Positions 4,520-53,517 are shown, counted from the first letter of the stretch. The stretch is 64,000 bases of DNA from the human T2T-CHM13v2.0 reference genome, Homo sapiens (GCF_009914755.1 NC_060937.1); one strand, 5' to 3'. Made by a program: numbers and translations. Notes: generated by a model from the letters alone, not told the origin.

Positions 4520-8357
<3,838 letters not shown>

Positions 8358-8420
8358 TATAATGTTAGCTGGTTATTTTGCTCGTTAATTGACGCAGTTT
8401 CTTCCTAGTCTTGATGTTCT

Positions 8421-31520: not shown

Positions 31521-31524
31521 AACA

Positions 31525-36476: not shown

Positions 36477-37999
36477 AGAAGGCCCATGAGGGGAAGGTGA
36501 GACACCTGGGGCAAAGAAGAAAAAAAAAATGCGCCGCGAAGCAGTGTCTGGGTCATCCAGGGACGAAAGTTTTTTCCCATCAGACCTTGCGCTGGGCCCC
36601 AGGGACCCTGGGATCCCTGGTTCACGCCCGGGGTGTGCCTCAGGCGACTAGGGGTACCACAACTTGGACAGAAGGCCCATGAGTGGAAGTTGAAGTTTGT
36701 GGGAGGAGAGGTGAGGCAGCAGGGGCAGAAAAAATAAAAAAAGAGGACCGCGTCTCAGAGAAGCGGGGCCTGGGTCCCCCACGGATGAAAGTGCCTTCCC
36801 ATCAGGCCCTATGCTGGGCCTGGTGGACCCTGGCGACCCTGGTTCGAGCCCAGGGTGCGCCTCGGGACAGCTTGGGGTACCACAAAGCAAAGAAAAGGTC
36901 CATGAGGGGAAGGTGAGGCACCTGAGGCAGAGAAAAAAAAAAATGCTCAGCCGAGAAGCAGTGCCTGGGTCCCCCACGGATGAAAGTGCCATCCCATCAG
37001 CCCCTTCGCTGGGCCCTGGGGACCCTGGCATCCCTGGTGTGACCCTGGGGTACGCCTCGGGACAGTAAGGGTACCCCAAGGTGGGCAGAAAGCCCCTAAG
37101 GGGAAGGTGAGGCACCTAGGGCAGAGAAAAAAAAAACTTCACCACGGAGAAACACGGCCTGGGTGCCCCACAGACGAAAGTGTCTTCCCATCAGTCCCTG
37201 CACTGGGACCCAGGGACCCTGTTGTCCCTCGTTCGAGCTCAGGGTGTGCCTCGGCCGCTAAGTGCACACCAAGGGGGCTTTGGGGACACAAAACCCGTGA
37301 GGGGAAGGTGAGTTTTGAGGGAGGACAGGTGAGGCACCTGTCACAGAAAAAGAAAAAAAAGAAACCCGCACCGCGGAGAGGTGGGGCCTGGGTACCCCAC
37401 GGATGAAAGTGCCTTCCCATCAGCCCCTGCGCTGGGCCACGGGGAACCTAGAGTCCCTGGTTGGAGCTCAGGGAGAGTCTCGGGCCACTAGGGATACCCC
37501 AACACGGTGGAAAGCCCATGAGAGGAAGGTGAGCTGTGAGGGAGGAGAGGTGAGGCACTTGTGGCAGAAAAGAAAAAGAAACCGCGCCACGGAAAAGTGG
37601 GGCCTGGGTCTCCCATGGAAAAAATGTGCCTTCCCATCAGTCCCTGAGCTGGGCCACGTGGACCAGGCGACCCTGGTTCTAGGCCTGGGTGCACCTCGGG
37701 CCCGCTAGGTGTACCCCAAAACGGGCTGAAGGCCCATGAGGGGAAGGTGACGTTTGACGGAAGAGAGGTGAGGCACCTGCGGCAGAAAAAAAAAAACCGT
37801 GCGGAAGAGAAGCGGGGCCTGGGTCTCCCACGGACGAAAGTGCCTTCTCATCAGCCCCTGCGCTGGGCCCCCTGGACTCTGGCGACCCTAGTTCAAGGAC
37901 CAGAAGAGACTCTGGCATGCTAGGGTACCCTAAGGAAGCCAGAAAGCCCATGAGGGGAAGGCGAGATTTAAGGGAGGAGAGGTGAGTCACCTGTGGCAG

Positions 38000-38057
<58 letters not shown>

Positions 38058-39552
38058 CACCTCGGAGAAGCCGGGACTGGGTCCCCACTGATGAAAGTGC
38101 CTTCCCATCAGCCCCTGCGCTAGCCCCGAGAACCTGGCGACCCTGATTGGAGACCCGGGAGCGCCTCGGGCCTGCTCGTGGTACCCCAAAGCAGGCAGAA
38201 GGCCAGTGAGGGGAAGGTGAGGCACCAGGGGCGGAGAAAAAAAACCGCAGCTTTGAGAAGCGGGGCCTGGGTACCCACGGATGAAGGTACATTCCCATCA
38301 GCCCCTGCGCTAGGCCCCGGCGACCCTGGCATCCATGGTTCGAGTCCAGGGAGAGCCTTGGGCCGGAAGGGGTACCCCAAGTAGAGCAGAAAGCCCATGA
38401 TGGGAAGTTGACGTTTGAGGGAGGAGAGGTGAGGAACCTGTGGCAGAAAAAAAAAAAAGAAAACAAGCCGCGCCTAGGAGAAACTGGGCCTGGGTACCCC
38501 AAGGATGAAAATGCCTTCCCATCAGTCCCTGCGCTGGGCCCTGTGGACGCTGGAGACCCCAGTTCGAGCCCCGGGTGCGCCCCGGGCCTGCTAGGGGTAC
38601 CACAAGGGGGGCAGAAATCCCATGAGGGGCAGTTGAGGTTTGAGGAAGGAGAGGTGAGGCACCTGTGGCAGAAAAAAAAAAACTGCACCACGGAGAAGCG
38701 GAGCCTGGATCCCCAACGGACGAAAGTGTCTTCCCATCAGCCCTTGCGCTGGGCACAGGGGACCCTGGCATTCCTGGTACGAGACCAGGGTGCGATTCAG
38801 GCCGCTAGGGGTACCCCAAGACAGACAGAAGGCCCATGAGGGAAAGGTGAGACACCTGGGGCAGAGAACAAAATAAAAAACTGCGCCCACCAGAAGTGGG
38901 GCCTGGGTTCCCCATGGACGAACGTCCCTACCCATAAGCCCTACACTGGGCCCCGGAGACCCTAGCATCCCTGGCTCAAAACAAGGGTGCGCCTCGGGCC
39001 GGCTAGGGGTACCTCAAGGCGGGCAGAAAGCCCATGACGGGAAAGTGAGGCACATGTGGAAAAGAAAAGAAAAAAAAACGCCACAGAGAAGCAGAGCCTG
39101 GGTCCCTGAGGAAGAACGTGTCTTATCATCAGCCACTGCGCTTGACCCTGTGGAACCTGGCTTCCATGGTTCGAGCCCAGGGTGTGCCTTGGGCCGCTAG
39201 GAGTAACCCAAAGCTTGCAGAAGGCACAAGAGGGGAAGGTGAGGCACCTGGGGCAGAGAAAAAAAAAACACAGCCGCGGAGAAGCGGGGACTGGGTCCTC
39301 CAAACGGACGAAAGTGTCTTCCCATCAGGACTTGTGCTGGGCCTCAGGGACCCTGGAGTCCCTGGTTCGATCCCACAGTGCACCTCGGGCCGCTAGGTGT
39401 ACCCCAAGGCAGACAGAAGCCACATGAGAGGAAGGTAAGATTTGAGGAAGGAGAGGAAAGGCATCTATCGTAGCAAAAAAAAAAAAAAACGCGCAAAGGA
39501 GAAGCAGGGCATGGGTCCCCCACAAACGAAAGTGCCTTCCCATCAGGCCCTG
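36477..39552. repeat. Gamma satellite array (GSATII-like), ~15 GC-rich monomers of ~190-225 bp
   Basis: agaaggcccatgaggggaaggtgaggcacctg...A-tract...gaaagtgccttcccatcagcccc recurs ~15 times; family name from recall. Confidence 0.85.
38015..38053. repeat. (TA)n microsatellite inside one gamma-satellite monomer
   Basis: A-tract followed by ~19 TA units. Confidence 0.95.
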
Positions 39553-39927
39553 AGGGTTTGAAAAAGAATGAAGAGTGACTAATGTCTACAGGGTTTTTCT
39601 CTGGTCGGGGGTGATAAGACGTTCTACAGTGGATTGCGAATTAAAATTGAATGTGCACAACCACAGGTATACTAAAAGCCACTCAATTCATGACTTTTAA
39701 TGGGGGAATCTTATGTGGCGCACTCTCATGGAGACCACGGCAGACATAGTGAGAGAGAAAAAGGTGAGTAAATATCTGAAACGGAGGCAGAAACAGAGAG
39801 AATGAAAAGCCCTGTGAATGGAAGGGAGAGCGAAAAGGGAAAATGGTCCTATTTACAAATGACAGATGTGAAACTGGGGTTCACATCAACAGTGTCACTG
39901 CCAGGAAGGAGGGTGATGCTAGCCATG

Positions 39928-42762
39928 TCACCGGTAGTGTGTCCCGCAGGGATGCCGACCTGCTCGAGCGTCGTGCCAGCATGGGCTCTGGCAGCCACGT
40001 GGGCCAGCAGGAGAGTCCCGCTGCACAGCTGCGGGGTGAGGATAGACTGGGTGGTGATATCGGCCATGACAGGGGCCTCTTTTGCTGGCAAGAGTGTGAC
40101 AGTAGCAAGTAGATGGACAGGCCTGCGTGTGAGGACGGAATGCAGGAGGGGCTCTTGTGCGGCTGCGTGTGGGGCCCTCACGGGAACCATGGAGTAATGG
40201 CCAGGTAACTGCGTCATGTGGGCTAGTAGATTGGCCAGGGATTCGAACTGAAGGACAATAACGGGGAGTAGCTGTCAGGCCCTGGGAGTGTCTGAGTGTA
40301 AGTGGAGATGGGTTTGGGGTCACTGAGGGATGCGTGGGAGCCATCCCTGTATAGGTACAGGTCATAGGGAGATAGTCTCGTGTGGCCTGTGAGTGTCTAG
40401 GGTTGTCCTGGGTGCCTGGGGCTGACTGTGGCAGAAATCTGGGGAAGGCTGGAGAGAAGTTGGGAGACCCAGGAGAGTCCCTGAAGGCAGGGGGTGAAGA
40501 GGTGAAAGAAATGGTGGAGGGTTGCAGTAAGGTCCGTGAGTTTGTATGTGATTCCTGGGTGCGGGAAGCTGACTCCACGTGAAATCTGGAGATGGTTGGA
40601 GAGTAGCTGAGAGAGACAGAAGAGTCCCTGAGGGCTGGGGATGAGAACATGAGGGAGACTGGGGAGTAAGTCAGTGAAATTCGTGAGTTCGGTGGTGTAT
40701 CGTGGGTGCCTGGAACTGACTCCAGCTGGAATCTAGAGAAGTTTTGAGAGTAGCTGAAAGAGACACGAGAGTCCCTGTGGGCTGAGGGCAAAGACCTGAG
40801 AGAGACCAGGGAGGACCTCAGTGAAGTCTGTGAGTCCGTAGGTGATTCTGGAGTGTGGGAGGCTGACTCCCGCTGAAATCTGGGCGTGGTGGGAGAGTAG
40901 CTGGGACATACAGGAGAGTCCCAGGGGGCTGGGGGTGAAGACATGAGAGAGACTGGGAAGTAACTCAGTGAAACTGCTGAGTTTGTAGGTGATACCTGGG
41001 TGCCTGGAACTGACTCCCGCTGAAATCTGGGCATGGTTGGAGAATAGCTGGGACCCACAGGAGAGTCCCTGAGGGCTGGGGGTGAAGACATGAGAGAGAC
41101 CGGGGAGTAACTGCGTGAAACTGATGAGTTTGGTGGTGACTCCGGGGTGCCTGGAACTGACTCCAGCTGAAATGTGGGCATGGTTGGAGAGTAGCTGGGA
41201 CAGACAGGAGAGTCCCCGAGGGCTGGTGAAGACATGACAGAGACTGGAGAGTAATTGAGTGAAATTGGTGAGTTTGGTGGTGATTCCTGGGTGCCTGGAA
41301 CTGACTCCCGCTGAAGTGTGGGCGTGGTTGGAGAGTAGCTGGGACACACAGGAGAGTCCCTGAGGGTTGGAGATAAAGACCTGCTAGAGACTGAGGAGTA
41401 ACTGAGTGAAATTGGTGAGTTTGGTGGTGATTCCGGGGTGCCTGGAACCAACCCCAGCTGTAATGTGGGCGTGGTTGGAGAGTAGCTGGGACAGACGGGA
41501 GAGTCCCTGAGGGATGGTGAAGACATGAGGGAGACTGGGGAGTAACGCAGTGAAATTGGTGAGTTTGGTGGTGATTTCTGGGTGCCTGCAACGGACTCCA
41601 GCTGAAGTGTGGGCGTGTTTGGAGAGTAGCTGGGACAGACTGGAGGGTCCGTAAGGGCTGGGGGTGAAGACGTGAGAGAGACTGGCCAGGATCTCCCTGA
41701 GGTCTGTGAGTTTGTAGGTGTTTCTGGGAGGTGGGGTACAGACTCCCGCTGAAACCTGGGCGTGGTTGGAGAGGAGCTGGGACAGACAGGAGAGTCATGG
41801 GTGGCTGGGGGTGAGCTGCTGGATGATGGCAGTAAGAACATATGGTATATTATTGATGAATGACGTGACTGTGATGAATCTCCAGAGGAGGGCAAGGGAG
41901 AAGACAATGACATGAGTGACTGTCCTGCTTGGTTAGGAAAGGGAGACATAAAGCTGTGGAATTCTGTTGATGATGGATGTGAGAGTGGTGAAGCCCTGCG
42001 GGATGATGTAGAGTACTTCCACATCCCTGGTGAGGAGCTGCCCCTTGGGTCTGAGTTTCTGGGAGGGGAGAGGGAGAAGCTGGGTGAGGCAGGCATGAAT
42101 CTTGAGGAGTCAGGGCTGGGGGACCGCTCATATTCTCCCGAGACCTGTGAGTCTCTGGGGGACTCCTGGGTGCATGGGGCTGACTCCCGCAGGAACCTGG
42201 GGATGGCTGGAGAGTAACTGGGAGCCACAGGAGAGTCCCTGAGGCCTGGGGGTGAAGAGATGAAAGACACAGGGGTGGAGCACCGTGAGGCTCGTGAGTT
42301 TGTAGGTGATTCCTGGGTGTGGGGGGCTGACTCCAGCTGAAATCTGGGGTTGTTTGGAGAGTAGCTGGGAGACACAGGAGACCCCCCGAGAGCTGGGGGT
42401 GAGCTGCTGGGTGATGGCAGTAAGAACATGTGGTATACTATTGATGAACGTGGGGACTCTGAGGAAACCTCAGAGGAGGACACAGGAGAGCCCAATGGCT
42501 TCATTGATTGCCCATCACGGTGAGGACAGGGAAATGGGAGCTTGTGGGATTCTGGTGATGACAGAGGTGAGTGTGGTGAAGCCCTAGGGGATGGTGAATG
42601 GTAGCTCCGGATCTCTGGTGAGGAGCTTCCCCTTAAGACTGAGTTTCTGAGAGGGGAGAGGGAGAAGCTGGGTGAGGCTCGCATGGACCTTCGGGAGTCC
42701 GGGCTGGGGGACCGTTCATAAGAAGAGCCAGACAAGACCCTACTGTTCTTAGGTTCAGACAT
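39928..42762 (-). CDS. Putative 944-aa Ser/Pro/Thr-rich repeat protein encoded by the ACRO1 array (expression unproven)
   Basis: Single stop-free frame over 2835 bp; 48/49-aa repeats DSPVCPSYSPTTPTLQRESVPGTQESPPNSPISL; ATG with A at -3; upstream TATA and GC box. Confidence 0.45.
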   Translation of the reverse strand: MSEPKNSRVLSGSSYERSPSPDSRRSMRASPSFSLSPLRNSVLRGSSSPEIRSYHSPSPRASPHSPLSSPESHKLPFPCPHRDGQSMKPLGSPVSSSEVSSESPRSSIVYHMFLLPSPSSSPPALGGSPVSPSYSPNNPRFQLESAPHTQESPTNSRASRCSTPVSFISSPPGLRDSPVAPSYSPAIPRFLRESAPCTQESPRDSQVSGEYERSPSPDSSRFMPASPSFSLSPPRNSDPRGSSSPGMWKYSTSSRRASPLSHPSSTEFHSFMSPFPNQAGQSLMSLSSPLPSSGDSSQSRHSSIIYHMFLLPSSSSSPPATHDSPVCPSSSPTTPRFQRESVPHLPETPTNSQTSGRSWPVSLTSSPPALTDPPVCPSYSPNTPTLQLESVAGTQKSPPNSPISLRYSPVSLMSSPSLRDSPVCPSYSPTTPTLQLGLVPGTPESPPNSPISLSYSSVSSRSLSPTLRDSPVCPSYSPTTPTLQRESVPGTQESPPNSPISLNYSPVSVMSSPALGDSPVCPSYSPTMPTFQLESVPGTPESPPNSSVSRSYSPVSLMSSPPALRDSPVGPSYSPTMPRFQRESVPGTQVSPTNSAVSLSYFPVSLMSSPPAPWDSPVCPSYSPTTPRFQRESASHTPESPTDSQTSLRSSLVSLRSLPSAHRDSRVSFSYSQNFSRFQLESVPGTHDTPPNSRISLTYSPVSLMFSSPALRDSSVSLSYSPTISRFHVESASRTQESHTNSRTLLQPSTISFTSSPPAFRDSPGSPNFSPAFPRFLPQSAPGTQDNPRHSQATRDYLPMTCTYTGMAPTHPSVTPNPSPLTLRHSQGLTATPRYCPSVRIPGQSTSPHDAVTWPLLHGSREGPTRSRTRAPPAFRPHTQACPSTCYCHTLASKRGPCHGRYHHPVYPHPAAVQRDSPAGPRGCQSPCWHDARAGRHPCGTHYR

Positions 42763-42823
42763 GATTAGGAAACCTGCAGCTCCCAGGGGCCCCTACTAAT
42801 TTTCCAACTCGCAGAAGGAAGGA

Positions 42824-42941
42824 GTGTGTGTGCGTGTGTGTGAGTGTGTGCGTGTGTGTGTGTGTGTGTGTCTGTGTGTGTGCGGTGTGAGGTATGTGCC
42901 CCTTAAGAAAATGGAAATCAACCAACCAATGAGACAGACAC

Positions 42942-42973
<32 letters not shown>
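42824..42973. repeat. (TG)n and (GACA)n microsatellites between promoter-like motifs and ATG
   Basis: Directly visible; mirrored at ~50228-50378. Confidence 0.95.
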
Positions 42974-42974
<1 letters not shown>

Positions 42975-43094
42975 GATTCACTTGCCCAAGTGTTCTGTCC
43001 TGTCCTCTGAATCCGCCTCCAAGTCGCAAGACGCCGTGAGCTCCAAGTCCACGCAGAGTCCGCCAAAGGCTCCGGCCGCTGACCCGCTCCGCCA

Positions 43095-43167
43095 AGATCT
43101 GAGTGCAGGCCAGCCAGGGTGGGTTTAAATAGCCTCGGGCGCAACCTAGCAGCGGAAAGGGCGGAGC
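43095..43167 (-). promoter_or_regulatory. Putative Pol II core promoter of unit 1: GC box, TATTTAAA, initiator-like ACTCAG
   Basis: gggcgg at ~43159, tttaaata at 43124-43131, ctgagt at ~43099-43104 (~30 bp from the TATA start). Confidence 0.5.
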
Positions 43168-43639
43168 TTCACTCCTCCTTTCCGTCAGTCACCCCCAACT
43201 TTCCCAGGCTACACCTCGTAGGAAACTGTTCTCCTACTTTGATTTCATGCGCCAACTTTGGGACAATCTAAGAACTTCCAAGTTTTCTTGGCCAGATATA
43301 TTAGGAATTGTATGCACTGAAACACTGAAAACCAACTAGTGGTTCTGTGGTTCCCACGTTGTGGTTTTGACGCCAGCAGCATCCTTGCCACAATCAAACC
43401 CCGGAGATCCACAGATCTGTGTTGTAACAAGACCTCCCCCTGACCCTGATGCATGGCAGTTTAAGAAGTCTTTCCGTGTAAGCAAAAAGACTTTGAAGAA
43501 AAGGTGGAGATATGCGTTGTATAAACATTCTTTTGCTCTGGAACCACGTGGAGACTTGGGAGCCAGTTGGGTGGAGCATTCGTTGGATGAGGGTGCTCGG
43601 GTTCGGAATATCAAGGTGTGGCTCCAGATAATCCAATCA

Positions 43640-44200
43640 TCTAATTAAGATTCCAGTTGTGCTCATCTGTTTTAAAATTCCGTTTGGGTAAATTCTTTTA
43701 GTCAGACTGAGAATGGCAAAACCTCAACCCCAATTTCCAGGGAGGGTTGAGAGCCTCAGGTGGAGTTGATCACCAATAGCCTATGGTTTAACCCATCATG
43801 CCTATAGAATGAGGTCTCCATAAAAACCCAAAAGGAATGGGTTCAGAGAGCTTCTGGATAACACTTCCTGGAAGGTACTGCGCCCCTCCCCACATGCCGG
43901 GCCCCACATTTATTTCTGAACTTTTTGCAATGTCCGCTAAAATACAACGGCAAATGTAAGTGTTTCCCTGAGTGCTGTGAGCTCTTCCAGCAAATGAATG
44001 CAACTAAATCTGGGAGTGGTGGCAACCTGATTTATAGCCAGTTGCTGAGAAGCACAGGTAAAACAACGTAGGCCTTCCCGTTGTTATTAGTGTGGGAGGC
44101 CTGCCTGGCGGGACTCGGCCCTTTGGAATCTAATGCTATGTCCCGGTAGATAGCGTCGCCATTGAATTAGAAGACACACATATGTTGAGAATAATCTTTC
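43640..44200 (+). mobile_element. MER21-like LTR within ACRO composite
   Basis: tgatcaccaatagcc...catcatgcctatagaatgaggtctccataaaaacccaaaagg...ttcagagagcttctggata. Confidence 0.75.
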
Positions 44201-44344
44201 TGGTCATTTGCTGCATGTCTTATTTACAATATGTAATCAAATTCTTTATCCTGACCTTATGGCACCTGGGTTGAGAACCATGATTTGAACCAAACATTGG
44301 TCTGTCACTTTCTGAGTTTGAAACTTTATTTTCCCTTTAGCGTT

Positions 44345-44655
44345 TTGCTATTGCTTTTTCGTTTTCTTTTGTTTCGTTTCGTTTCTAAGTTCTGGGGTAT
44401 ATGTGCAGGATGGGCAGATTTGTTACTAAGGTAAACGTTTGCCATGGTGGTTTGCTGCACCTGTCAACCCATCACCTAGGTATTATGCCCAGCATGCAGT
44501 AGCTGTTTTCCTTAACGCTCCACCTCCCGAAAGGCCCCAGTGTGTGTTGTTCCCCTTCCTGTGTCCATGTGATCTCATTCTTCAGCTCCCATTATAAGTG
44601 AGAATGTGGCGTTTGGGTTTCTTTCCCTGGATTAGTTTGCTGAGGATAATGACCA
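44345..44655 (-). mobile_element. L1PA 3'UTR fragment
   Basis: T-rich tail then atgtgcaggatg...ggtttgctgcacc...ttagtttgctgaggataatg. Confidence 0.85.
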
Positions 44656-45396
44656 CACATCACCACTGTTTTTGTTTTGTAGTATAAAGAGTAGCATTTT
44701 ATTGAATAAGATTTGCTCACAGAAAAATAAACTTAAATCTACAATGAATGCCAGACTCTACAGCAGAAAGCAATTTTCTCACTTTTCCACACACAATGGT
44801 TCCTACTAAGTGAAAAAAAGCCATAAAATTTCATTCACAAATGTACTAATTTTTCTCAAAACATCTCACATAATCATGCAGTGTACTAAAGCCATTAGAT
44901 CAGTGCTTCAGTCAGGTTAAAGAAGTATCCCTCTAATAATTGACTTTTATAATGCTATCAATGTCCGCTCCCAATCAGTCTGCCATTGTTAATGGTGTAC
45001 AGCATTACTGTATACAATGGAATTGATGACACCCATATCCACGGACAAACCGTGACTTATGATGGTTTGATTCATGATTTTTCAACGTTATGATGGGTTT
45101 ATTGGAATATTAGATGCGTTTCTGAGTTACACCGGTTTATGAGTATGCGACCCTATACCCCAGAAACAGCTGTATAAGGAAAAACAGGTGTACCTAATAA
45201 AAATATGCTTAGTGACTTGCGATAAACCAATAGATGTTCACAACTGATGGAGAGCCGTGAAAGAGAGATAGCGGTAAATAGTTACAATAACACAATTTTC
45301 CTGCACCTGTCGAGGATTTCCCCCAAAAAACGCAGAATGTGGGATGCACCTAAGGCATATGAAAGAGAGAGGGCAGAAGGAGTAAGAGAGAAATAG

Positions 45397-45492
45397 GAGG
45401 AAGGAAGGAAGGAAGGAAAGAAGGAAGGTAGGAAGGAAGGAAGGAAGGAAAGAAGGAAGGAAGGAAGGAAGGAAAGAAGGACGAACGGAAGG
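45397..45492. repeat. (GGAA)n microsatellite
   Basis: Directly visible. Confidence 0.97.
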
Positions 45493-45718
45493 AGAAAACA
45501 CCCGGTGTTACTAAAACCCCCCAAAAATATGGTTTCCCCCTGTGGGTAAGCCTACAATGTGGATCAATCTTGAAAATATTGTGCTACGTGTTATGTCGGT
45601 CATAACAGCTCACCTATTGTGCAATTCCGTTTATAGGAAATGTCCACAATATGGAAATCTATGCATATGGGGTTGATCGCACTAGGTAGTTGCTACCTAG
45701 GGCTGAGGGTCAGGGAGA

Positions 45719-48700
45719 GGGTTTGAGACAGAATGAGGAGTGACTAATGTCTACAGGGTTTTTCTCTGGTCGGGGGTGATAAGACGTTCTACAATGGATT
45801 GTGAATTAAAATTGAATGTGCACAACCACAGGTATACTAAAAGCCACTCAATTCATGACTTTTAATGGGGGAATCTTATGTGGCGCACTCTCATGGAGAC
45901 CACGGCAGACATAGTGAGAGAGAAAAAGGTGAGTAAATATCTGAAACGGAGGCAGAAACAGAGAGAATGAAAAGCCCTGTGAATGGAAGGGAGAGCGAAA
46001 AGGGAAAATGGTCCTATTTACAAATGACAGATGTGAAACTGGGGTTCACATCAACAGTGTCACTGCCAGGAAGGAGGGTGATGCTAGCCATGTCACCGGT
46101 AGTGTGTCCCGCAGGGACGCCGACCTGCTGGAGCGTCGTGCCAGCATGGGCTCTGACAGCCACGTGGGCCAGCAGGAGGGTCCCGCTGCACAGCTGCGGG
46201 GTGAGGATAGACTGGGTGGTGATATCGGCCATGATAGGGGCCTTTTCTGCTGGCAAGAGTGTGACAGTAGCAAGTAGATGGACAGGCCTGCGTGTGAGGA
46301 CGGAATGCAGGAGGGGCTCTTGTGCGGCTGGGTGTGGGGCCCTCACGGGAACCGTGGAGTGATGGCCAGGTAACTGCGTCATGTGGGCTAGTAGACTGGC
46401 CAGGGCTTCGAACTGAAGGACAATAACGGGGAGTAGCTGTCAGGCCCTGGGAGTGTCTGAGTGTAAGTGGAGATGGGTTTGGGGTCACTGAGGGATGCGT
46501 GGGAGCCATCCCTGTATAGGTACAGGTCATAGGGAGATAGTCTCGTGTGGCCTGTGAGTGTCTAGGGTTGTCCTGGGTGCCTGGGGCTGACTGTGGCAGA
46601 AATCTGGGGAAGGCTGGAGAGAAGCTGGGAGACCCAGGAGAGTCCCTGAAGGCAGGGGGTGAAGAGGTGAAGGAAATGGTGGAGGGTGGCAGTAAGGTCC
46701 GTGAGTTTGTAGGTGATTCCTGGGTGCGGGAAGCTGACTCCACGTGAAATCTGGAGATGGTTGGAGAGTAGCTGAGAGAGACAGAAGAGTCCCTGAGGGC
46801 TGGGGGTGAGAACATGAGGGAGACTGGGGAGTCAGTCAGTGAAATTCGTGAGTTCGGTGGTGTATCGTGGGTGCCTGGAACTGACTCCAGCTGGAATCTA
46901 GAGAAGTTTTGAGAGTAGCTGAAAGAGACACAAGAGTCCCTGTGGGCTGAGGGCAAAGACCTGAGAGAGACCAGGGAGGACCTCAGTGAAGTCTGTGAGT
47001 CCGTAGGTGATTCTGGAGTGTGGGAGGCTGACTCCCGCTGAAATCTGGGCGTGGTGGGGGAGTAGCTGGGACAGACAGGAGAGTCCCAGGGTGCTGGGGG
47101 TGAAGACATGAGAGAGACTGGGGAGTAACTCAGTGAAACTGCTGAGTTTGTAGGTGATACCTGGGTGCCTGGAACTGACTCCCGCTGAAATCTGGGCATG
47201 GTTGGAGAGTAGCTGGGACACACAGGAGAGTCCCTGAGGGCTGGGGGTGAAGACATGAGATAGACCGGGGAGTAACTGAGTGAAACTGGTGAGTTTGGTG
47301 GTGATTCCGGGGTGCCTGGAACTCACTCCAGCTGAAATGTGGGCGAGGTTGGAGAGTAGCTGGGACAGACGGGAGAGTCCCTGAGGGATGGTGAAGACAT
47401 GAGAGAGACTGGGGAGTAACTGAGTGAAACTGGTGAGTTTGGTGGTGATTTCTGGGTGCCTTCAACGGACTCCCGCTGAAGTGTGGGCGTGCTTGGAGAG
47501 TAGCTGGGACAGACAGGCCAGTCCCTGAGGGCTGGTGAAGACATGAGAGAGACTGGAGAGTAATTGAGTGAAATTGGTGAGTTTGGTGGTGATTCCTGGG
47601 TGCCTGGAACTGACTCCCGCTGAAGTGTGGGCGTGGTTGGAGAGTAGCTGGGACACACAGGAGAGTCCCTGAGGGATGGTGAAGACATGAGAGAGACTGG
47701 GGAGTAACGCAGTGAAATTGGTGAGTTTGGTGGTGATTTCTGGGTGCCTGCAACGGACTCCCGCTGAAGTGTGGGCGTGTTTGGAGAGTAGCTGGGACAG
47801 ACAGGCGAGTCCCTGAGAGTTGGAGATAAAGACGTGCTAGAGACTGGGGAGTAACTCAGTGAAAGTGGTGGGCTTGGCGGTGATGCCTGGGTTCCTGGAA
47901 CTGTCCCGCGCTGAAATGTGGGCGTGGTTGGAGAGTAGCTGGGACAGACTGGAGGGTCCGTAAGGGCTGGGGGTGAAGACGTGAGAGAGACTGGCCAGGA
48001 TCTCCCTGAGGTCTGTGAGTTTGTAGGTGTTTCTGGGGTGTGGGGTACAGACTCCCGCTGAAATGTGGGCGTGGTTGGAGAGTAGCTGGGACAGACAGGA
48101 GAGTCATGGGTGGCTGGGGGTGAGCTGCTGGATGATGGCAGTAAGAACATATGGTATATTATTGATGAATGAGGTGACTGTGAAGAATCTCCAAAGGAGG
48201 ACACGGGAGAACACAATGACATGAGTGACTGTCCTGCTTGGTTAGGAAAGGGAAACGTAAAGCTGTGGAATTCTGTTGATGATGGATGTGAGAGTGGTGA
48301 AGCCATGCGGGATGATGTAGAGTACTTCCACATCCCTGGTGAGGAGCTGCCCCTTGGGTCTGAGTTTCTGGGAGGGGAGAGGGAGAAGCTGGGTGAGGCA
48401 GGCATGAATCTTGAGGAGTCAGGGCTGGGGGACCGCTCATATTCTCCCGAGACCTGTGAGTCTCTGGGGGACTCCTGGGTGCATGGGGCTGACTCCCGCA
48501 GGAACCTGGGGATGGCTGGAGAGTAACTGGGAGCCACAGGAGAGTCCCTGAGGCCTGGGGGTGAAGAGATGAAAGACACAGGGGTGGAGCACCGTGAGGC
48601 TCGTGAGTTTGTAGGTGATTCCTGGGTGTGGGGGGCTGACTCCAGCTGAAATCTGGGGTTGTTTGGAGAGTAGCTGGGAGACACAGGAGACCCCCCGAGA

Positions 48701-48998
48701 GCTGGGGGTGAGCTGCTGGGTGATGGCAGTAAGAACATGTGGTATATTATTGATGAACCTGGGGACTCTGAGGAATCCTCAGAGGAGGACACAGGAGAGC
48801 CCGATGGCTTCATTGATTGCCCATCACGGTGAGGACAGGGAAATGGGAGCTTGTGGGATTCTGGTGATGACAGAGGTGAGTGTGGTGAAGCCCTAGGGGA
48901 TGGTGAATGGTAGCTCCGGATCCCTGGTGAGGAGCTTCCCCTTAAGCCTGAGTTTCTGAGAGGGGAGAGGGAGAAGCTGGGTGAGGCTCGCATGGACC
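45719..48998 (-). repeat. ACRO1 composite unit 2 (partial; cut near the ORF 5' end)
   Basis: Colinear with 39553-42689 apart from monomer-number differences. Confidence 0.9.
46093..48993 (-). pseudogene. ACRO1 ORF copy 2: lacks first 26 codons and promoter, internal TGA at 47323-47325
   Basis: ORFs 47323..48993 and 46093..47256 are in frame and match the 944-aa ORF. Confidence 0.6.
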
Positions 48999-51900
48999 AG
49001 AAAGATTATTCTCAACATATGTGTGTCTTCTAATTCAATGGTGACGCTATCTATCGGGACATAGCATTAGATTCCAAAGGGCCGAGTCCCGCCAGAAAGG
49101 CCTCCCACACTAATAACAACGGGGAGCCCTACGTTGTTTTACCTGGGCTTCTCAGCAACTGGCTATAAATCAGGTTTCCACCACTCCCAGATTTAGTTGC
49201 ATTCATTTGCTGGAAGAGCTCACAGCACTCAGGGAAACACTTACATTTGCCGTTGTATTTTAGCGGACATTGCAAAAAGTTCAGAAATAAATGTGGGGCC
49301 CGGCATGTGGGGAGGGGCGTACTACCTTCCAGGATGTGTTATCCAGAAGCTCTCTGAACCCAGTCCTTTTGGGTTTTTATGGAGACCTCATTCTATAGGC
49401 ATGATGGGTTAAACCATAGGCTATTGGTGATCAGCTCCACCTGAGGCTCTCAACCCTCCCTGGTAATTGGGGTTGAGGCTTTGCCATTCTCAGTCTGACT
49501 AAAATAATTTACCCAAACGGAATTTTAAAACAGATGAGCACAACTGGAATCTTAATTAGATGATTGGATTATCTGGAGCCACAACTTGATATTCCGAACC
49601 CGAGCACCCTCATCCAACGAATGCTCCACCCAACTGGCTCCCAAGTCTCCACGTGTTTCCAGAGGAAAAGAATGCTTATACAACGCATATCTCCACCTTT
49701 TCTTCAAAGTCTTTTCGCTTACACGGAAAGACTTCTTAAACTGCCATGCATCAGGGTCAGGGGGAGGTCTTGTTACAACACAGATCTGTGGATCTCCGGG
49801 GTTTGATGGTGGCAAGGATGCTGCTGGTGTCAAAACCACAACGTGGGAACCACAGAACCACTAGTTGGTTCTCAGTGTTTCAGTGCATACAATTCCTAAT
49901 ATATCTGGCCAAGAAAACTTGGAAGTTCTTAGATTGTCCCAAAGTTGGCGCATGAAATCAAAGTAGGAGAACAGTTTCCTACGAGGTGTAGCCTGGGAAA
50001 GTTGGGGGTGACTGACGGAAAGGAGGAGTGAAGCTCCGCACTTTCCGTTGCTAGGCTGCGCCCGAGGCTATTTAAACCCACCCTGGCTGGCCTGTACTCA
50101 GATCTTCGCGGAGCGGATCAGCGGCCGGAGCCTTTGGCGGACTCTGCGTGGACTTGGAGCTCACGGCGTCTTGCGACTTGGAAGCGGATTCAGAGGACAG
50201 GACAGAACACTTGGGCAAGTGAATCTCTGTCTGTCTCTCTGTCTGTCTGTCTGTCTGTGTGTCTGTCTCATTGGTTGGTTGATTTCCATTTTCTTAAGGG
50301 GCACATACCTCACACCGCACACACACAGACACACACACACGCACACACACGCACACACTCACACACACGCACACACACTCCTTCCTTCTGCGAGTTAGAG
50401 AATTAGTAGGGGCCCCTGGGAGCTGCAGGTTTCCTAATCATGTCTGCACCTAAGAACAGTAGGGTGTTGTCTGGCTCTTCTTATGAACGGTCCCCCAGCC
50501 TGGACTCCCCAAGTTCCATGCGAGCCTCACCCAGCTTCTCCCTCTCCCCTCTCAGAAACTCAGGCTTAAGGGGAAGCTCCTCACCAGGGATCCGGAGCTA
50601 CCATTCACCATCCCCTAGGGCTTCACCACACTCACCTCTGTCATCACCAGAATCCCACAAGCTCCCATTTCCCTGTCCTCACCGTGATGGGCAATCAATG
50701 AAGCCATCGGGCTCTCCTGTGTCCTCCTCTGAGGATTCCTCAGAGTCCCCAGGTTCATCAATAATATACCACATGTTCTTACTGCCATCACCCAGCAGCT
50801 CACCCCCAGCTCTCGGGGGGTCTCCTGTGTCTCCCAGCTACTCTCCAAACAACCCCAGATTTCAGCTGGAGTCAGCCCCCCACACCCAGGAATCACCTAC
50901 AAACTCACGAGCCTCACGGTGCTCCACCCCTGTGTCTTTCATCTCTTCACCCCCAGGCCTCAGGGACTCTCCTGTGGCTCCCAGTTACTCTCCAGCCATC
51001 CCCAGGTTCCTGCGGGAGTCAGCCCCATGCACCCAGGAGTCCCCCAGAGACTCACAGGTCTCGGGAGAATATGAGCGGTCCCCCAGCCCTGACTCCTCAA
51101 GATTCATGCCTGCCTCACCCAGCTTCTCCCTCTCCCCTCCCAGAAACTCAGACCCAAGGGGCAGCTCCTCACCAGGGATGTGGAAGTACTCTACATCATC
51201 CCGCATGGCTTCACCACTCCCACATCCATCATCAACAGAATTCCACAGCTTTACGTTTCCCTTTCCTAACCAAGCAGGACAGTCACTCTTATCATTGGGT
51301 TCTCCCGTGTCCTCCTCTGGAGATTCTTCACAGTCACCTCATTCATCAATAATATACCATATGTTCTTACTGCCATCATCCAGCAGCTCACCCCCAGCCA
51401 CCCATGACTCTCCTGTCTGTCCTAGCTACTCTCCAACCACGCCCACATTTCAGCGGGAGTCTGTACCCCACACCCCAGAAACACCTACAAACTCACAGAC
51501 CTCAGGGAGATCCTGGACAGTCTCTCTCACGTCTTCACCCCCAGCCCTTACGGACCCTCCAGTCTGTCCCAGCTACTCTCCAACCACGCCCACATTTCAG
51601 TGCGGGACAGTTCCAGGAACCCAGGGATCACCGCCAAGCCCACCACTTTCACTGAGTTACTCCCCAGTCTCTAGCACGTCTTTATCTCCAACCCTCAGGG
51701 ACTCGCCTGTCTGTCCCAGCTACTCTCCAAGCACGCCCACACTTCAGCGGGAGTCCGTTGCAGGCACCCAGAAATCACCACCAAACTCACCAATTTCACT
51801 GCGTTACTCCCCAGTCTCTCTCATGTCTTCACCATCCCTCAGGGACTCTCCCATCTGTCCCAGCTACTCTCCAACCACGCCCACATTGCAGCTGGAGTCA

Positions 51901-53480
51901 GTTCCAGGTACCCCGGAATCACCACCACACTCACCAATTTCACTCAGTTACTCCTCAGTCTCTAGGACGTCTTTATCTCCAACCCTCAGGGACTCTCCTG
52001 TGTGTCCCAGCTACTCTCCAACCACGCCCACACTTCAGCGGGAGTCAGTTCCAGGCACCCAGGAATCACCACCAAACTCACCAATTTCACTCAATTACTC
52101 TCCAGTCTCTCTCATGTCTTCACCAGCCCTCAGGGACTGGCCTGTCTGTCCCAGCTACTCTCCAAGCACGCCCACACTTCAGCGGGAGTCCGTTGAAGGC
52201 ACCCAGAAATCACCACCAAACTCACCAGTTTCACTCAGTTACTCCCCAGTCTCTCTCATGTCTTCACCATCCCTCAGGGACTCTCCCGTCTGTCCCAGCT
52301 ACTCTCCAACCTCGCCCACATTTCAGCTGGAGTGAGTTCCAGGCACCCCGGAATCACCACCAAACTCACCAGTTTCACTCAGTTACTCCCCGGTCTATCT
52401 CATGTCTTCACCCCCAGCCCTCAGGGACTCTCCTGTGTGTCCCAGCTACTCTCCAACCATGCCCAGATTTCAGCGGGAGTCAGTTCCAGGCACCCAGGTA
52501 TCACCTACAAACTCAGCAGTTTCACTGAGTTACTCCCCAGTCTCTCTCATGTCTTCACCCCCAGCACCCTGGGACTCTCCTGTCTGTCCCAGCTACTCCC
52601 CCACCACGCCCAGATTTCAGCGGGAGTCAGCCTCCCACACTCCAGAATCACCTACGGACTCACAGACTTCACTGAGGTCCTCCCTGGTCTCTCTCAGGTC
52701 TTTGCCCTCAGCCCACAGGGACTCTTGTGTCTCTTTCAGCTACTCTCAAAACTTCTCTAGATTCCAGCTGGAGTCAGTTCCAGGCACCCACGATACACCA
52801 CCGAACTCACGAATTTCACTGACTTACTCCCCAGTCTCCCTCATGTTCTCACCCCCAGCCCTCAGGGACTCTTCTGTCTCTCTCAGCTACTCTCCACCCA
52901 TCTCCAGATTTCACCTGGAGTCAGCTTCCCGCACCCAGGAATCACCTACAAACTCACGGACCTTACTGCAACCCTCCACCATTTCTTTCACCTCTTCACC
53001 CCCTGCCTTCAGGGACTCTCCTGGGTCTCCCAGCTTCTCTCCAGCCTTCCCCAGATTTCTGCCACAGTCAGCCCCAGGCACCCAGGACAACCCTAGACAC
53101 TCACAGGCCACACGAGACTATCTCCCTATGACCTGTACCTATACAGGGATGGCTCCCACGCATCCCTCAGTGACCCCAAACCCATCTCCACTTACACTCA
53201 GACACTCCCAGGGCCTGACAGCTACTCCCCGTTATTGTCCTTCAGTTCGAAGCCCTGGCCAGTCTACTAGCCCACATGACGCAGTTACCTGGCCATCACT
53301 CCACGGTTCCCGTGAGGGCCCCACACCCAGCCGCACAAGAGCCGCTCCTGCATTCCGTCCTCACACGCAGGCCTGTCCATCTACTTGCTACTGTCACACT
53401 CTTGCCAGCAGAAGAGGCCCCTGTCATGGCCGATATCACCACCCAGTCTATCCTCACCCCACAGCTGTGCAGCGGGACCC
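48999..53480 (+). repeat. ACRO1 composite unit 3 (partial, inverted)
   Basis: 48999 onward is the reverse complement of unit 1 from ~44200 downward (MER21, promoter-like region, microsatellites, ACRO1 array). Confidence 0.93.
50030..50105 (+). promoter_or_regulatory. Putative core promoter of unit 3
   Basis: TATTTAAA at 50069-50076, actcag at ~50096-50101; GC box altered (ctccgcac versus ctccgccc in unit 1). Confidence 0.45.
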
Positions 53481-53517
53481 CAAGAATCATTACTTCTTAA
53501 AATACAATTCAAATTAG
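50440..53517 (+). pseudogene. ACRO1 ORF copy 3: 631-aa ORF to TGA at 52333-52335, frame continues to the breakpoint at 53480
   Basis: ORFs 50440..52335 and 52402..53517 in frame; last residues (KNHYFLKYNSN) come from unrelated flank. Confidence 0.6.

What the first reader, a model, noticed from the sequence alone, without database searches (positions are those of the whole stretch)
39928..43167. ACRO1 'satellite' has the anatomy of a protein-coding gene: promoter motifs plus an intact 944-codon ORF
Seen: GC box, TATTTAAA and an initiator-like ACTCAG at canonical spacing, a leader with microsatellites, an ATG with A at -3, then 2835 bp without a stop through many diverged monomers whose lengths are 144 or 147 bp (multiples of 3), a non-repetitive C-terminal tail, and an ATTAAA on the same strand ~230 bp past the stop (~39696-39701). 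Known: ACRO1 is catalogued as a 147-bp satellite in ~6-kb units, amplified on acrocentric short arms. Inference: the composite may be a tandemly amplified (likely germline-restricted) gene family masked as satellite. Caveat: a C-rich strand is intrinsically stop-poor, and I cannot check whether this ORF has already been reported.
Basis: partly seen in the sequence, partly recalled or inferred. Interest (0 to 1): 0.8.

Follow-up and report, generated by a model that had tools for sequence, protein, structure and literature searches.

The report
ACRO1 satellite unit is a gene
The 'ACRO1 satellite' unit on human chromosome 13p carries an intact 944-codon reading frame with gene-like flanks, and the same frame is found in marmoset, colobus and rabbit, so the satellite looks like the repeated coding part of an old, amplified gene, though nothing yet shows that humans make the protein.

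Summary
An ATG-to-TGA frame of 944 codons lies at 39928-42762 (-). Upstream are CCGCCC, TATTTAAA and ACTCAG, then a 342-nt leader without ATG. An ATTAAA follows 226 nt after the stop.

The frame is more than a stop-poor accident. Predicted proteins from marmoset, red colobus and rabbit (auto-named 'RPB1') match it. So do several unnamed records. The rabbit and the more distant unnamed proteins match only in this frame, and reversed or shuffled queries give nothing comparable. Several share the same start Met, the 49-residue repeats and a C-terminal tail with a nearly invariant ACPSTCYCHTLA block.

Each 147-bp monomer encodes seven degenerate heptads (SPxxPSY) that resemble the Pol II CTD, as Boots et al. 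2020 noted for the consensus monomer. Pfam's CTD-repeat model does not match.

A DUX4-type site lies about 500 bp upstream of the TATA box of both promoter-bearing copies. This fits published DUX4 and 4-cell-embryo ACRO1 expression.

Against present-day function: the three copies in the window differ neutrally (dN/dS 0.95-1.15). Two share a TGA nonsense codon. Other database copies are frameshifted. The tail is predicted disordered.

Verdict: a conserved, amplified single-exon gene catalogued as satellite. Translation in humans is unproven.

The parts
43629..43639 (+). DUX4-type homeodomain site TAATCCAATCA, about 500 bp upstream of the TATA box of copy A
   Evidence: the pattern TAAYYYAATCA occurs exactly twice in 64 kb, here and at the equivalent place upstream of copy C (49561-49571). 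Chance mean is 0.58, and 8 of 100 shuffles give 2 or more. The motif is recalled from the DUX4 literature, not taken from a call.
43099..43164 (-). Core promoter motifs: CCGCCC (43164-43159), TATTTAAA (43131-43124), ACTCAG (43104-43099)
   Evidence: TATTTAAA and ACTCAG recur with the same spacing in copy C (50069, 50096). The GC box does not. CpG observed/expected is 0.75 over 42990-43260.
42763..43104 (-). Presumed 5' leader, 342 nt, without ATG, holding (AGAC)n and (CA)n microsatellites
   Evidence: There is no ATG in copy A or copy C. Shuffle P(0) is 0.007-0.02. Two in-frame TAG codons lie 10-11 codons before the ATG.
39928..42762 (-). Intact ORF of 944 codons plus TGA. The product would be ~101 kDa, pI 9.4, Ser 23%, Pro 17%, with 86 S/T-P sites.
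41794..42762 (-). N-terminal 323 codons: two ~196-codon higher-order units, each ~98 weakly ACRO1-like codons plus two ACRO1 monomers
   Evidence: It aligns to marmoset P0002 with 225 of 322 identities and a single one-residue indel.
40330..41793 (-). Ten ACRO1 monomers of 147 or 144 bp (49 or 48 codons), each seven degenerate heptads SPxxPSY
   Evidence: Amino-acid identity at lag 7 is 0.23. Nucleotide identity at lag 21 is 0.46, against a maximum of 0.39 in 2000 shuffles.
39931..40329 (-). Non-repetitive C-terminal tail, predicted disordered
   Evidence: AlphaFold2 mean pLDDT 52.8, no secondary structure.
40087..40122 (-). Most conserved block of the tail, ACPSTCYCHTLA
   Evidence: 16 sequences: C94 and H101 are invariant; P95, T97, Y99, C100, T102, L103 and A104 are kept in at least 90%. 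The rabbit protein reads ACPSSCYCHSVA.
39696..39701 (-). ATTAAA, candidate poly(A) signal 226 nt after the stop
   Evidence: Homology between copies A and B runs on to 39552.
46093..48996 (-). Copy B: 5'-truncated at codon ~26 by an inverted-duplication junction, with one in-frame TGA at 47323-47325
49561..53517 (+). Copy C: DUX4-type site, TATA, leader and ORF from 50440. It has the same in-frame TGA at 52333-52335 and a different 3' end.

Best explanation
The ACRO composite unit is an intronless RNA polymerase II gene. The '147-bp ACRO1 satellite' is its internally repeated coding region.

Shown:
- The unit has a TATA box with an initiator-like motif, an ATG-free leader, a 944-codon ORF and an ATTAAA.
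- The same reading frame, with 49-residue repeats and a tail carrying a nearly invariant ACPSTCYCHTLA block, is present in marmoset and rabbit predicted proteins and in several unnamed database proteins. The N-terminal part with the same start Met is present in colobus too.
- It follows that the frame predates the primate-rabbit split and was kept open over that time.

Inferred:
- In catarrhine primates the whole unit of about 6 kb was amplified into arrays on acrocentric short arms, much as D4Z4 carries DUX4.
- The units are silent in somatic cells and are switched on at the 4-cell stage or by DUX4, through the DUX4-type site ~500 bp upstream of the TATA box.
- The mRNA would give a ~100 kDa basic, disordered Ser/Pro-rich protein of about 16 repeats, each seven CTD-like heptads, with 86 proline-directed phosphorylation sites.
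- The most likely action is as a phosphorylatable CTD-like scaffold or decoy for CTD-binding factors during embryonic genome activation, with the conserved tail block serving as a docking motif. This last step is speculation.
- Individual human copies are under almost no selection. The family is a mix of intact and broken copies.
For: Anatomy.

Conservation of the frame:
- Marmoset P0002 (832 aa, nr/UniRef name 'RPB1', Callithrix jacchus) starts at the same Met. It aligns over the first 323 residues with one 1-residue indel, and over 134 tail residues with none.
- Colobus P0008 is named 'RPB1-like' and starts at the same Met.
- Rabbit P0040 ('RPB1', Oryctolagus cuniculus) matches the human DNA in the ORF frame only: 4 of 4 HSPs, the best covering rabbit residues 9-532 at 35% identity, 147 bits, E 4e-41. 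The reversed query gives 18.9 bits and 20 shuffles give at most 28.9 bits.
- Unnamed P0044 has the N-terminal unit, one monomer and the tail, and ends at the same place. It matches only in frame: 5 of 5 HSPs, 118 bits against at most 21.9 for controls. All its indels are in frame.
- P0031 and P0087 each match in frame in 2 of 2 HSPs.
- Other intact start-to-stop forms with different monomer numbers exist: P0001 (652 aa) and P0089 (361 aa).

Neutral simulations on this DNA:
- 3.0% of substitutions in this frame make a stop.
- At 11% divergence, P(no stop) is 0.011 for the N-terminus plus tail and 0 of 4000 for the whole ORF.
- At 27% divergence, P(no stop) is 0.015 for the last monomer plus tail.

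Stop depletion within the array: P = 0.009.

Regulation: the DUX4-type motif occurs only upstream of the two promoters. Passages read say that DUX4 activates ACRO1 transcription (PMC8990217, introduction), that ACRO1 peaks at the 4-cell stage in poly(A)-selected single-cell data (PMC6545021), and that it is hypomethylated in spermatogonial stem cells and sperm and rises in early embryos (PMC5832720).
Against: - Between copies A, B and C, dN/dS is 0.95, 0.98 and 1.15.
- The ORF diverges 1.9-2.7% between copies, which is no less than its non-coding flanks at 1.3-2.0%.
- Among 12 monomers (66 pairs) the pooled dN/dS is 0.74, and differences by codon position are 724/922/960. Position 2 is not spared.
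- B and C share a TCA-to-TGA nonsense codon.
- P0003, P0004 and P0005 run into other frames, and many of the 83 library hits mix frames.
- All three frames of this strand are equally stop-prone, at 3.0, 3.45 and 2.9% of substitutions. Intactness of copy A relative to a 3%-distant ancestor is therefore unremarkable (P = 0.08).
- Amino-acid identity to marmoset (~70%) and colobus (83%) is no higher than I would expect for neutral DNA. That expectation uses recalled divergences.
- In P0051 the translated promoter region is as similar to the human sequence (58%) as the tail is (58%).
- Database proteins are ORFs that happened to be open, so ascertainment favours intact frames.
- There is no Pfam family, and the tail has no predicted fold.
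- RefSeq annotates no gene here (hub table).
- Boots et al. found no stable ACRO1 transcript in HeLa cells (PMC7714431, section 7).
- The transcription start site, polyadenylation and translation are all unverified.
Confidence: 0.6

Rival explanations
1. Relic gene. The unit descends from a real protein-coding gene, which may still work in rabbit or in New World monkeys. The amplified human copies are pseudogenes in slow decay. Whatever they do now is done by the RNA or the DNA: embryonic satellite transcripts, the Pol II-binding aptamers of Boots et al., or heterochromatin and nucleolar organisation.
For: Copies differ neutrally (dN/dS 0.95-1.15). The ORF is no more conserved than its flanks. 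B and C share a nonsense codon, and database copies are frameshifted. Copy A staying open at 3% divergence has P = 0.08 under neutrality. Boots et al. report ACRO1 RNA as a Pol II-binding aptamer that inhibits elongation in cis (PMC7714431, abstract and sections 7 and 12). RefSeq has no gene model here.
Against: In a family of many copies, selection on any single copy is expected to be very weak, so dN/dS near 1 between paralogues does not exclude a functional family. Intact start-to-stop frames of 944, 652 and 361 aa exist with different monomer numbers. The leader has no ATG in either promoter-bearing copy. Start Met, stop position and tail motif are all retained.
Confidence: 0.3
2. Never coding. 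The frame is a by-product of a C-rich, stop-poor satellite whose period (21 bp, then 147 bp) happens to be a multiple of three. Homogenisation from an open master copy keeps it open.
For: The consensus monomer is open in frames 0 and 2 and has one stop in frame 1. A 277-aa ORF exists in frame 1. Decayed copies that mix frames still give 400-550 aa ORFs. Gain or loss of whole monomers preserves the frame automatically.
Against: This cannot explain the non-repetitive N-terminus and tail being kept in the same frame, with only in-frame indels, in marmoset, rabbit and P0044. It cannot explain the nearly invariant tail block. It cannot explain why the rabbit protein matches in one frame only. Boots et al. 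found no non-primate homologue of the ACRO1 repeat (PMC7714431, section 7); I take theirs to have been a DNA-level search. A protein-level match that persists where DNA similarity is not found is what coding sequence gives.
Confidence: 0.05
3. Recent capture of Pol II CTD coding sequence. This is the suggestion of Boots et al. 2020: ACRO1 derives from POLR2A CTD mRNA and is a very recent, primate-only acquisition.
For: All 12 PDB matches of the ORF are RPB1 CTDs (best E 2.6e-5), aligned in heptad register over 184 residues. Seven-residue and 21-nt periodicity are clear.
Against: A rabbit homologue with the same 49-residue repeats and tail exists, so the gene is not primate-only. The rabbit protein has no PDB match at E <= 1. 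Pfam's CTD-repeat model PF05001 matches 0 of 5 ACRO-type proteins, while a true CTD fragment (P0081) scores 1e-43. The regular yeast CTD matches better than the mammalian one (E 2.6e-5 against 0.01-0.03), which points to resemblance to the ideal heptad rather than descent from the mammalian gene. No RPB1 appears among the 83 hits in the 1.8-billion-protein library.
Confidence: 0.05

Closest known systems
D4Z4 macrosatellite carrying the DUX4 ORF
   Same: A kilobase-scale repeat unit catalogued as satellite, in which each unit holds an intronless ORF. It is silenced in somatic cells and expressed at the human cleavage stage. ACRO1 transcripts are reported to be induced by DUX4 itself (PMC8990217, introduction; 10.64898/2025.12.22.696056, section 15).
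   Different: DUX4 is a folded double-homeodomain factor with a proven protein and a disease link. The ACRO ORF is a disordered Ser/Pro repeat protein with no protein evidence. Its coding region is itself a tandem array, which is why it is masked as a 147-bp satellite.
Other tandemly amplified coding arrays (TSPY/DYZ5, USP17L/RS447, CT47). Recalled, not checked in any call.
   Same: Multicopy gene arrays with germline or embryonic expression, many broken copies and weak selection on each copy.
   Different: Those encode recognisable domains and are annotated as genes. ACRO is annotated only as a repeat in human.
RNA polymerase II RPB1 C-terminal domain (YSPTSPS heptads; Pfam PF05001)
   Same: Heptad periodicity. 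SP falls in a fixed register in 29 of 38 SP dipeptides of the core monomers. PSYSPT-like heptads occur, and RPB1 CTDs are the only PDB matches. The similarity of the consensus monomer was already reported (PMC7714431).
   Different: It is not attached to a polymerase body. PF05001 does not match. Only about 3 of the 7 heptads in each monomer are CTD-like. The rabbit homologue is not detectably CTD-like. The 'RPB1' names in nr are automatic misnomers.
ACRO1 satellite / ACRO composite ('ACRE', ACRO_Comp) as described in print
   Same: This is the same sequence: 147-bp monomers in blocks inside a ~6-kb composite with L1PA10, MER21B and L1MB8 pieces, enriched on acrocentric short arms (PMC7714431 section 7; PMC12767296 section 5; 10.1101/2021.07.12.451456 section 6).
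   Different: Those papers treat it as a non-coding, primate-specific repeat. In the passages I read, none describes a whole-unit ORF, a promoter, or a non-primate homologue.

Membership tests
RPB1 C-terminal heptad repeat (Pfam PF05001) | Matches the curated YSPTSPS repeat model | tested here: not met
   0 of 5 ACRO-type proteins match: the window ORF, and P0040, P0002, P0044 and P0089. The positive control P0081, a true CTD fragment, scores 1e-43 with 18 stretches.
RPB1 C-terminal heptad repeat (Pfam PF05001) | Seven-residue periodicity with SP in a fixed register | tested here: met
   identity at lags 7, 14 and 21 is 0.23, 0.18 and 0.18, while most lags that are not multiples of 7 lie at 0.05-0.10 and none exceeds 0.16; 29 of 38 SP dipeptides are in register 0.
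RPB1 C-terminal heptad repeat (Pfam PF05001) | C-terminal extension of the polymerase large subunit | tested here: not met
   The ORF has its own ATG, preceded by in-frame stops. No RPB1 body domain is found.
Satellite DNA (ACRO1) | Head-to-tail tandem monomers of ~147 bp | tested here: met
   period 147, 8.7 copies, 79% matches, at 40536-41815.
Satellite DNA (ACRO1) | Non-coding, with no conserved reading frame | tested here: not met
   The frame is conserved to marmoset and rabbit.
Coding macrosatellite (D4Z4/DUX4 type) | Each unit carries a promoter, an intronless ORF and a poly(A) signal | tested here: met
   Copy A carries all of them. Copy C has the promoter and an ORF with one stop. Copy B lacks the promoter. 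Marmoset residues 1-608 align to one uninterrupted stretch of the human DNA, so no intron is needed.
Coding macrosatellite (D4Z4/DUX4 type) | Units arranged in tandem arrays | tested here: inconclusive
   In this window the three copies are not a regular head-to-tail array: A(-), B(-) and C(+), with B and C forming an inverted duplication. Tandem arrays are described in print (PMC12767296 section 5).
Coding macrosatellite (D4Z4/DUX4 type) | A protein product has been demonstrated | not testable with these tools
   No expression, ribosome-profiling or proteomic data are available here.
DUX4 target gene | A DUX4 binding motif near the promoter | tested here: met
   2 of 2 window matches lie ~500 bp upstream of the two TATA boxes. 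The motif itself is recalled.
DUX4 target gene | DUX4 occupancy and induction of a sense-strand transcript from this promoter | not testable with these tools
   Only family-level statements in print say that DUX4 activates ACRO1 (PMC8990217, introduction). Strand and start site were not seen.

The most novel reading that the evidence does not exclude
ACRO arrays are a DUX4-driven multicopy gene. Its product, a ~100 kDa disordered protein of ~110 CTD-like heptads with a conserved Cys/His tail motif, is made in a burst at human embryonic genome activation. There it acts as a mimic or sponge of the Pol II CTD for CTD kinases, phosphatases, prolyl isomerases or transcription condensates. If so, a 'satellite' of the nucleolar chromosome arms would be a dosage-variable regulator of the first wave of embryonic transcription, and a DUX4-induced protein in FSHD muscle and in cancers.
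Probability: 0.2. Interest if true: 0.88.

Novelty: new member of a known kind. Interest (0 to 1): 0.68.

Why it matters
ACRO is described as the repeat most specific to great-ape acrocentric short arms apart from rDNA (PMC12767296). ACRO1 is one of the satellites repeatedly reported as switched on by DUX4 and at the 4-cell stage. It has been analysed only as non-coding, primate-specific repeat RNA.

If the unit is a gene conserved since before the primate-rabbit split, three things follow:
- Repeat-masking has hidden a multicopy embryonic gene from annotation, Ribo-seq and proteomic searches.
- ACRO1 'satellite expression' in embryos, FSHD and tumours may in fact be mRNA expression.
- Copy number on acrocentric arms, which varies between people, would be gene dosage.

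The idea is directly testable with existing DUX4-induction and embryo data remapped to T2T assemblies.

It also corrects public records. The 'RNA polymerase II subunit RPB1(-like)' entries for marmoset, colobus and rabbit are this gene, not RPB1. The statement that ACRO1 has no non-primate homologue holds only at the DNA level.

Tried and rejected
- More human copies from contaminated public assemblies. The search for related loci on genome contigs found no relative among 107 pattern matches. An 18-nt monomer word gave only two single chance matches in bacterial genomes (L001, L002) and none in viral contigs. A genome-wide census of intact against broken units was therefore impossible.
- No DNA of the non-human homologues is held, so no codon-level dN/dS across species could be computed.
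- Pfam on the ORF, its tail and four homologues gave nothing above noise.
- Rfam on 36-56 kb gave no match.
- AlphaFold2 on the tail with a 16-sequence alignment gave mean pLDDT 52.8 and no secondary structure. There is no fold to search, so no fold search was run.
- Indel counting between copies is uninformative. There are 0 indels in ~2250 nt of ORF and 1 (in a microsatellite) in 1314 nt of flanks.
- I tried to locate the L1 and LTR parts of the composite by listing ORFs at 43200-45720. Nothing was recognisable, and I did not pursue it.
- I considered and rejected the idea that the cross-species matches are compositional. Reversed and shuffled queries reach at most 28.9 bits, against 147 and 118 for the real ones.
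- Literature searches for a prior report of an ACRO ORF or gene: 'ACRO1' + 'open reading frame', 'ACRO1' + 'DUX4', 'ACRO1' alone (59 papers hold the term, 40 were listed, and I read passages in 11), 'ACRO_COMP', 'RPB1-like' + 'primate' (0 papers), 'DUX4' + 'acrocentric' + 'CTD', and 'ACRO1' + 'protein-coding' + 'embryo'. The only related statement found is in Boots et al. 2020, on the translated consensus monomer. Subscription-journal papers such as Hendrickson et al. 2017, and all supplements, were not seen.


Full report
**1. The observation**

The frame is there as described. The ORF listing gives an ATG-to-TGA ORF of 944 aa at 39928..42762 on the minus strand.
- Over that span the ORF frame has no internal stop. 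The two other frames of the same strand have 10 and 17 stops, and the plus-strand frames have 90, 40 and 43.
- Upstream lie CCGCCC (43164-43159), TATTTAAA (43131-43124) and ACTCAG (43104-43099).
- The 342-nt stretch from ACTCAG to the ATG holds two microsatellites and no ATG. Shuffling gives P(0) = 0.007 for the whole leader and 0.02 for its 240 non-microsatellite bases. The same strand further upstream has about 6 ATG per 342 nt.
- The ATG has A at -3, and an ATTAAA lies 226 nt after the stop.
- The ten core monomers are 49 or 48 codons long.
- The first 323 residues are two ~196-residue higher-order units, only partly ACRO1-like.

**2. Copies in the window**

Self-comparison finds three copies.
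- Copy A is the finding.
- Copy B (46093-48996, minus strand) is cut at about codon 26 by the junction of an inverted duplication.
- Copy C (ORF from 50440, plus strand) has the same upstream region, TATA box, ACTCAG and ATG-free leader, but a different 3' end.
- B and C share a single in-frame TGA where A has TCA.
- Differences in length between copies are whole monomers, which keep the frame automatically.

**3. Selection among these copies**

I found none.
- Nei-Gojobori dN/dS is 0.95 for A/B (916 codons), 0.98 for A/C (920 codons) and 1.15 for B/C (943 codons).
- Nucleotide divergence in the ORF is 1.9-2.7%, no lower than in the non-coding flanks at 1.3-2.0%. Indels are too rare everywhere to be informative.
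- Among 12 monomers of copy A (66 pairs) the pooled dN/dS is 0.74, and differences by codon position are 724/922/960. This is not the pattern of a constrained protein.
- In simulation, 3.0% of substitutions in this frame create a stop, about the same as in the other two frames (3.45% and 2.9%). An ORF of this length survives 3% divergence with P = 0.08.
- Copy A being open, taken alone, is therefore weak evidence.
- Within the array there is some stop depletion. Permuting the 151 observed variants over 11 monomers predicts 5.0 stops in this frame, with P(0) = 0.009. Frame 2 behaves neutrally, with 4.3 expected and 3 seen.

**4. What the repeat encodes**

- The consensus monomer reads SPVCPSY SPTTPRF QLESVPG TQESPTN SPISLSY SPVSLMS SPPALRD, which is seven degenerate heptads.
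- Amino-acid identity peaks at lags 7, 14, 21 and 28. Nucleotide identity at lags 21, 42 and 63 is 0.46, 0.41 and 0.42, against a maximum of 0.39 in 2000 shuffles.
- All 12 PDB sequence matches are RPB1 C-terminal domains (best E 2.6e-5, with a large composition bias), aligned in heptad register.
- Boots et al. 2020 (PMC7714431; abstract and sections 7 and 12 read) had already reported that the translated consensus monomer is 23/49 identical to a CTD fragment. They suggested a recent, primate-only derivation from CTD mRNA.
- They did not describe a whole-unit ORF or a promoter. They stated that no non-primate homologue of the repeat was found.
- Pfam's CTD-repeat model does not match the ORF or four homologues, while a true CTD fragment scores 1e-43.

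**5. Relatives elsewhere: the decisive part**

The word-indexed protein search returned six proteins. The exhaustive search of 1.84 billion representatives returned 83 hits, all of them ACRO-type fragments of at most 607 aa. Names, where the tools gave them:
- P0002: 'DNA-directed RNA polymerase II subunit RPB1', Callithrix jacchus.
- P0008: 'RPB1-like', Piliocolobus tephrosceles.
- P0040: 'RPB1', Oryctolagus cuniculus.
- P0005: a Plasmodium ovale wallikeri 'hypothetical protein', which is a chimera with human-like ACRO sequence.

The marmoset protein starts at the same Met and has the same two N-terminal units and the same tail. Identity to the human ORF is 85/127, 72/98, 68/97 and 96/134 in successive unique parts. 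There is one 1-residue indel in the first 323 residues and none in the tail. About 65 residues of one monomer are read in another frame.

The rabbit protein has several recognisable monomers of about 49 residues and a tail carrying ACPSSCYCHSVA. By tblastn it matches the human DNA only in the ORF frame. All 4 HSPs are in frame, and the best covers rabbit residues 9-532 at 35% identity, 147 bits, E 4e-41. The reversed query gives 18.9 bits and 20 shuffles give at most 28.9 bits.

Unnamed P0044 (355 aa) reads through the leader region. From the homologous Met it has one N-terminal unit, one monomer and the tail, and it ends where the human ORF ends. It is 35-40% identical, with only in-frame indels. 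All 5 HSPs are in frame, at 118 bits against at most 21.9 for controls.

Intact start-to-stop forms of 652 aa (P0001) and 361 aa (P0089) also exist.

In a 16-sequence alignment of tails, C94 and H101 are invariant. P95, T97, Y99, C100, T102, L103 and A104 are kept in at least 90% of sequences. This is the block ACPSTCYCHTLA at 40087-40122.

Neutral simulation gives P(no stop) = 0.011 for the N-terminus plus tail at 11% divergence, 0 of 4000 for the whole ORF, and 0.015 for the last monomer plus tail at 27%. The divergences assumed for human-marmoset (~11%) and for the distant forms are recalled or guessed, not measured. Frameshifts would add to this.

I conclude that this frame has been kept as coding sequence since before the primate-rabbit split. 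That refutes the 'never coding' reading and the 'primate-only CTD capture' reading.

**6. Evidence on the other side**

- Database proteins are by construction open frames, so they over-represent intact copies.
- Many hits are decayed copies that wander between frames and are still 400-550 aa long (P0006, P0026, P0065, and others).
- P0003, P0004 and P0005 run into other frames.
- Amino-acid identity to marmoset (~70%) and colobus (83% over 253 residues) is no higher than I would expect for neutral DNA.
- In P0051 the translated promoter region is as similar to the human sequence as the tail is (58% each).
- The protein therefore evolves about as fast as neutral sequence. What is conserved is openness, frame, repeat pattern, start, stop and one short block.
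- The tail has no predicted fold (mean pLDDT 52.8).

**7. Regulation**

The pattern TAAYYYAATCA (a DUX4 site, recalled) occurs twice in 64 kb. Each occurrence lies ~500 bp upstream of the TATA box of a promoter-bearing copy (chance mean 0.58, and 8 of 100 shuffles give 2 or more). Passages I read state the following:
- DUX4 activates transcription from ACRO1 (PMC8990217, introduction; 10.64898/2025.12.22.696056, section 15).
- ACRO1 peaks at the 4-cell stage in poly(A)-selected single-cell data (PMC6545021, abstract and section 6).
- ACRO1 is hypomethylated in spermatogonial stem cells and sperm, low in germ and somatic cells, and up in early embryos (PMC5832720, section 11).
- No stable ACRO1 transcript was detected in HeLa cells (PMC7714431, section 7).

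None of these passages gives strand or start site.

The T2T and ape-acrocentric papers treat ACRO as a 6-kb composite repeat (ACRO1 + L1PA10 + MER21B + L1MB8). In the passages I read they mention no ORF.

**8. Verdict**

The unit is best read as an intronless gene whose repeated coding region is catalogued as the ACRO1 satellite. The whole unit was amplified in the manner of a macrosatellite such as D4Z4/DUX4.
- Shown: the anatomy, the conservation of the frame, the CTD-like heptad design, and the motif upstream.
- Inferred: the promoter's use, DUX4 dependence of this promoter, translation, and any function of the ~101 kDa, pI 9.4 protein with 86 S/T-P sites.
- I put 0.6 on a gene family that is still coding, 0.3 on a relic whose human copies act only as RNA or DNA, and 0.05 each on the two readings disfavoured in section 5 (never coding; recent CTD capture).

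Noticed in passing
46178-48996 and 50515-53480: Copies B and C form an inverted duplication whose arms are ~91-95% identical by BLAST. A ~1.5-kb spacer between them holds C's promoter and first 25 codons. The shared TGA shows that the nonsense mutation predates the duplication.
   Followed up: partly
36767-39436: GC-rich tandem repeats of 194-225 bp with poly-A stretches lie directly downstream of copy A's 3' end. Their family is not identified.
   Followed up: no
31452-32525 (-): The RefSeq 'protein_coding' model LOC124907096 lies inside a 357-aa ORF that is Arg/Pro/Gly-rich, has internal repeats and matches no Pfam family. It looks like a repeat-derived ORF rather than a conserved gene.
   Followed up: partly
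5549-9077 (-): Fragments of L1 ORF1 (RBD, dsRBD and trimerisation domains) and of L1 ORF2 (endonuclease, reverse transcriptase).
   Followed up: yes
40965-41798 (-): A second ORF of 277 aa in frame 1 of the same monomers (LQPRPHFS... reading). It shows how stop-poor this strand is. Frameshifted database copies (P0004, P0005) continue in this frame.
   Followed up: partly
P0005 (protein library): A 'hypothetical protein / PIR superfamily' entry of Plasmodium ovale wallikeri is a chimera. About 300 residues are human-type ACRO ORF and the rest is parasite-like, which suggests host DNA in that assembly.
   Followed up: no
P0002, P0008, P0040 (protein library): Public entries named 'DNA-directed RNA polymerase II subunit RPB1(-like)' for marmoset, red colobus and rabbit are ACRO-type ORFs. 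They are not RPB1: PF05001 does not match P0002 or P0040 (P0008 was not scanned), and the rabbit protein has no PDB RPB1 match.
   Followed up: yes
P0051 (protein library), matched to window 42988-43131: In this diverged copy the frame runs from the tail through an Alu-like stretch into sequence homologous to the promoter and leader. In its source, therefore, units follow each other head to tail with a short spacer.
   Followed up: no
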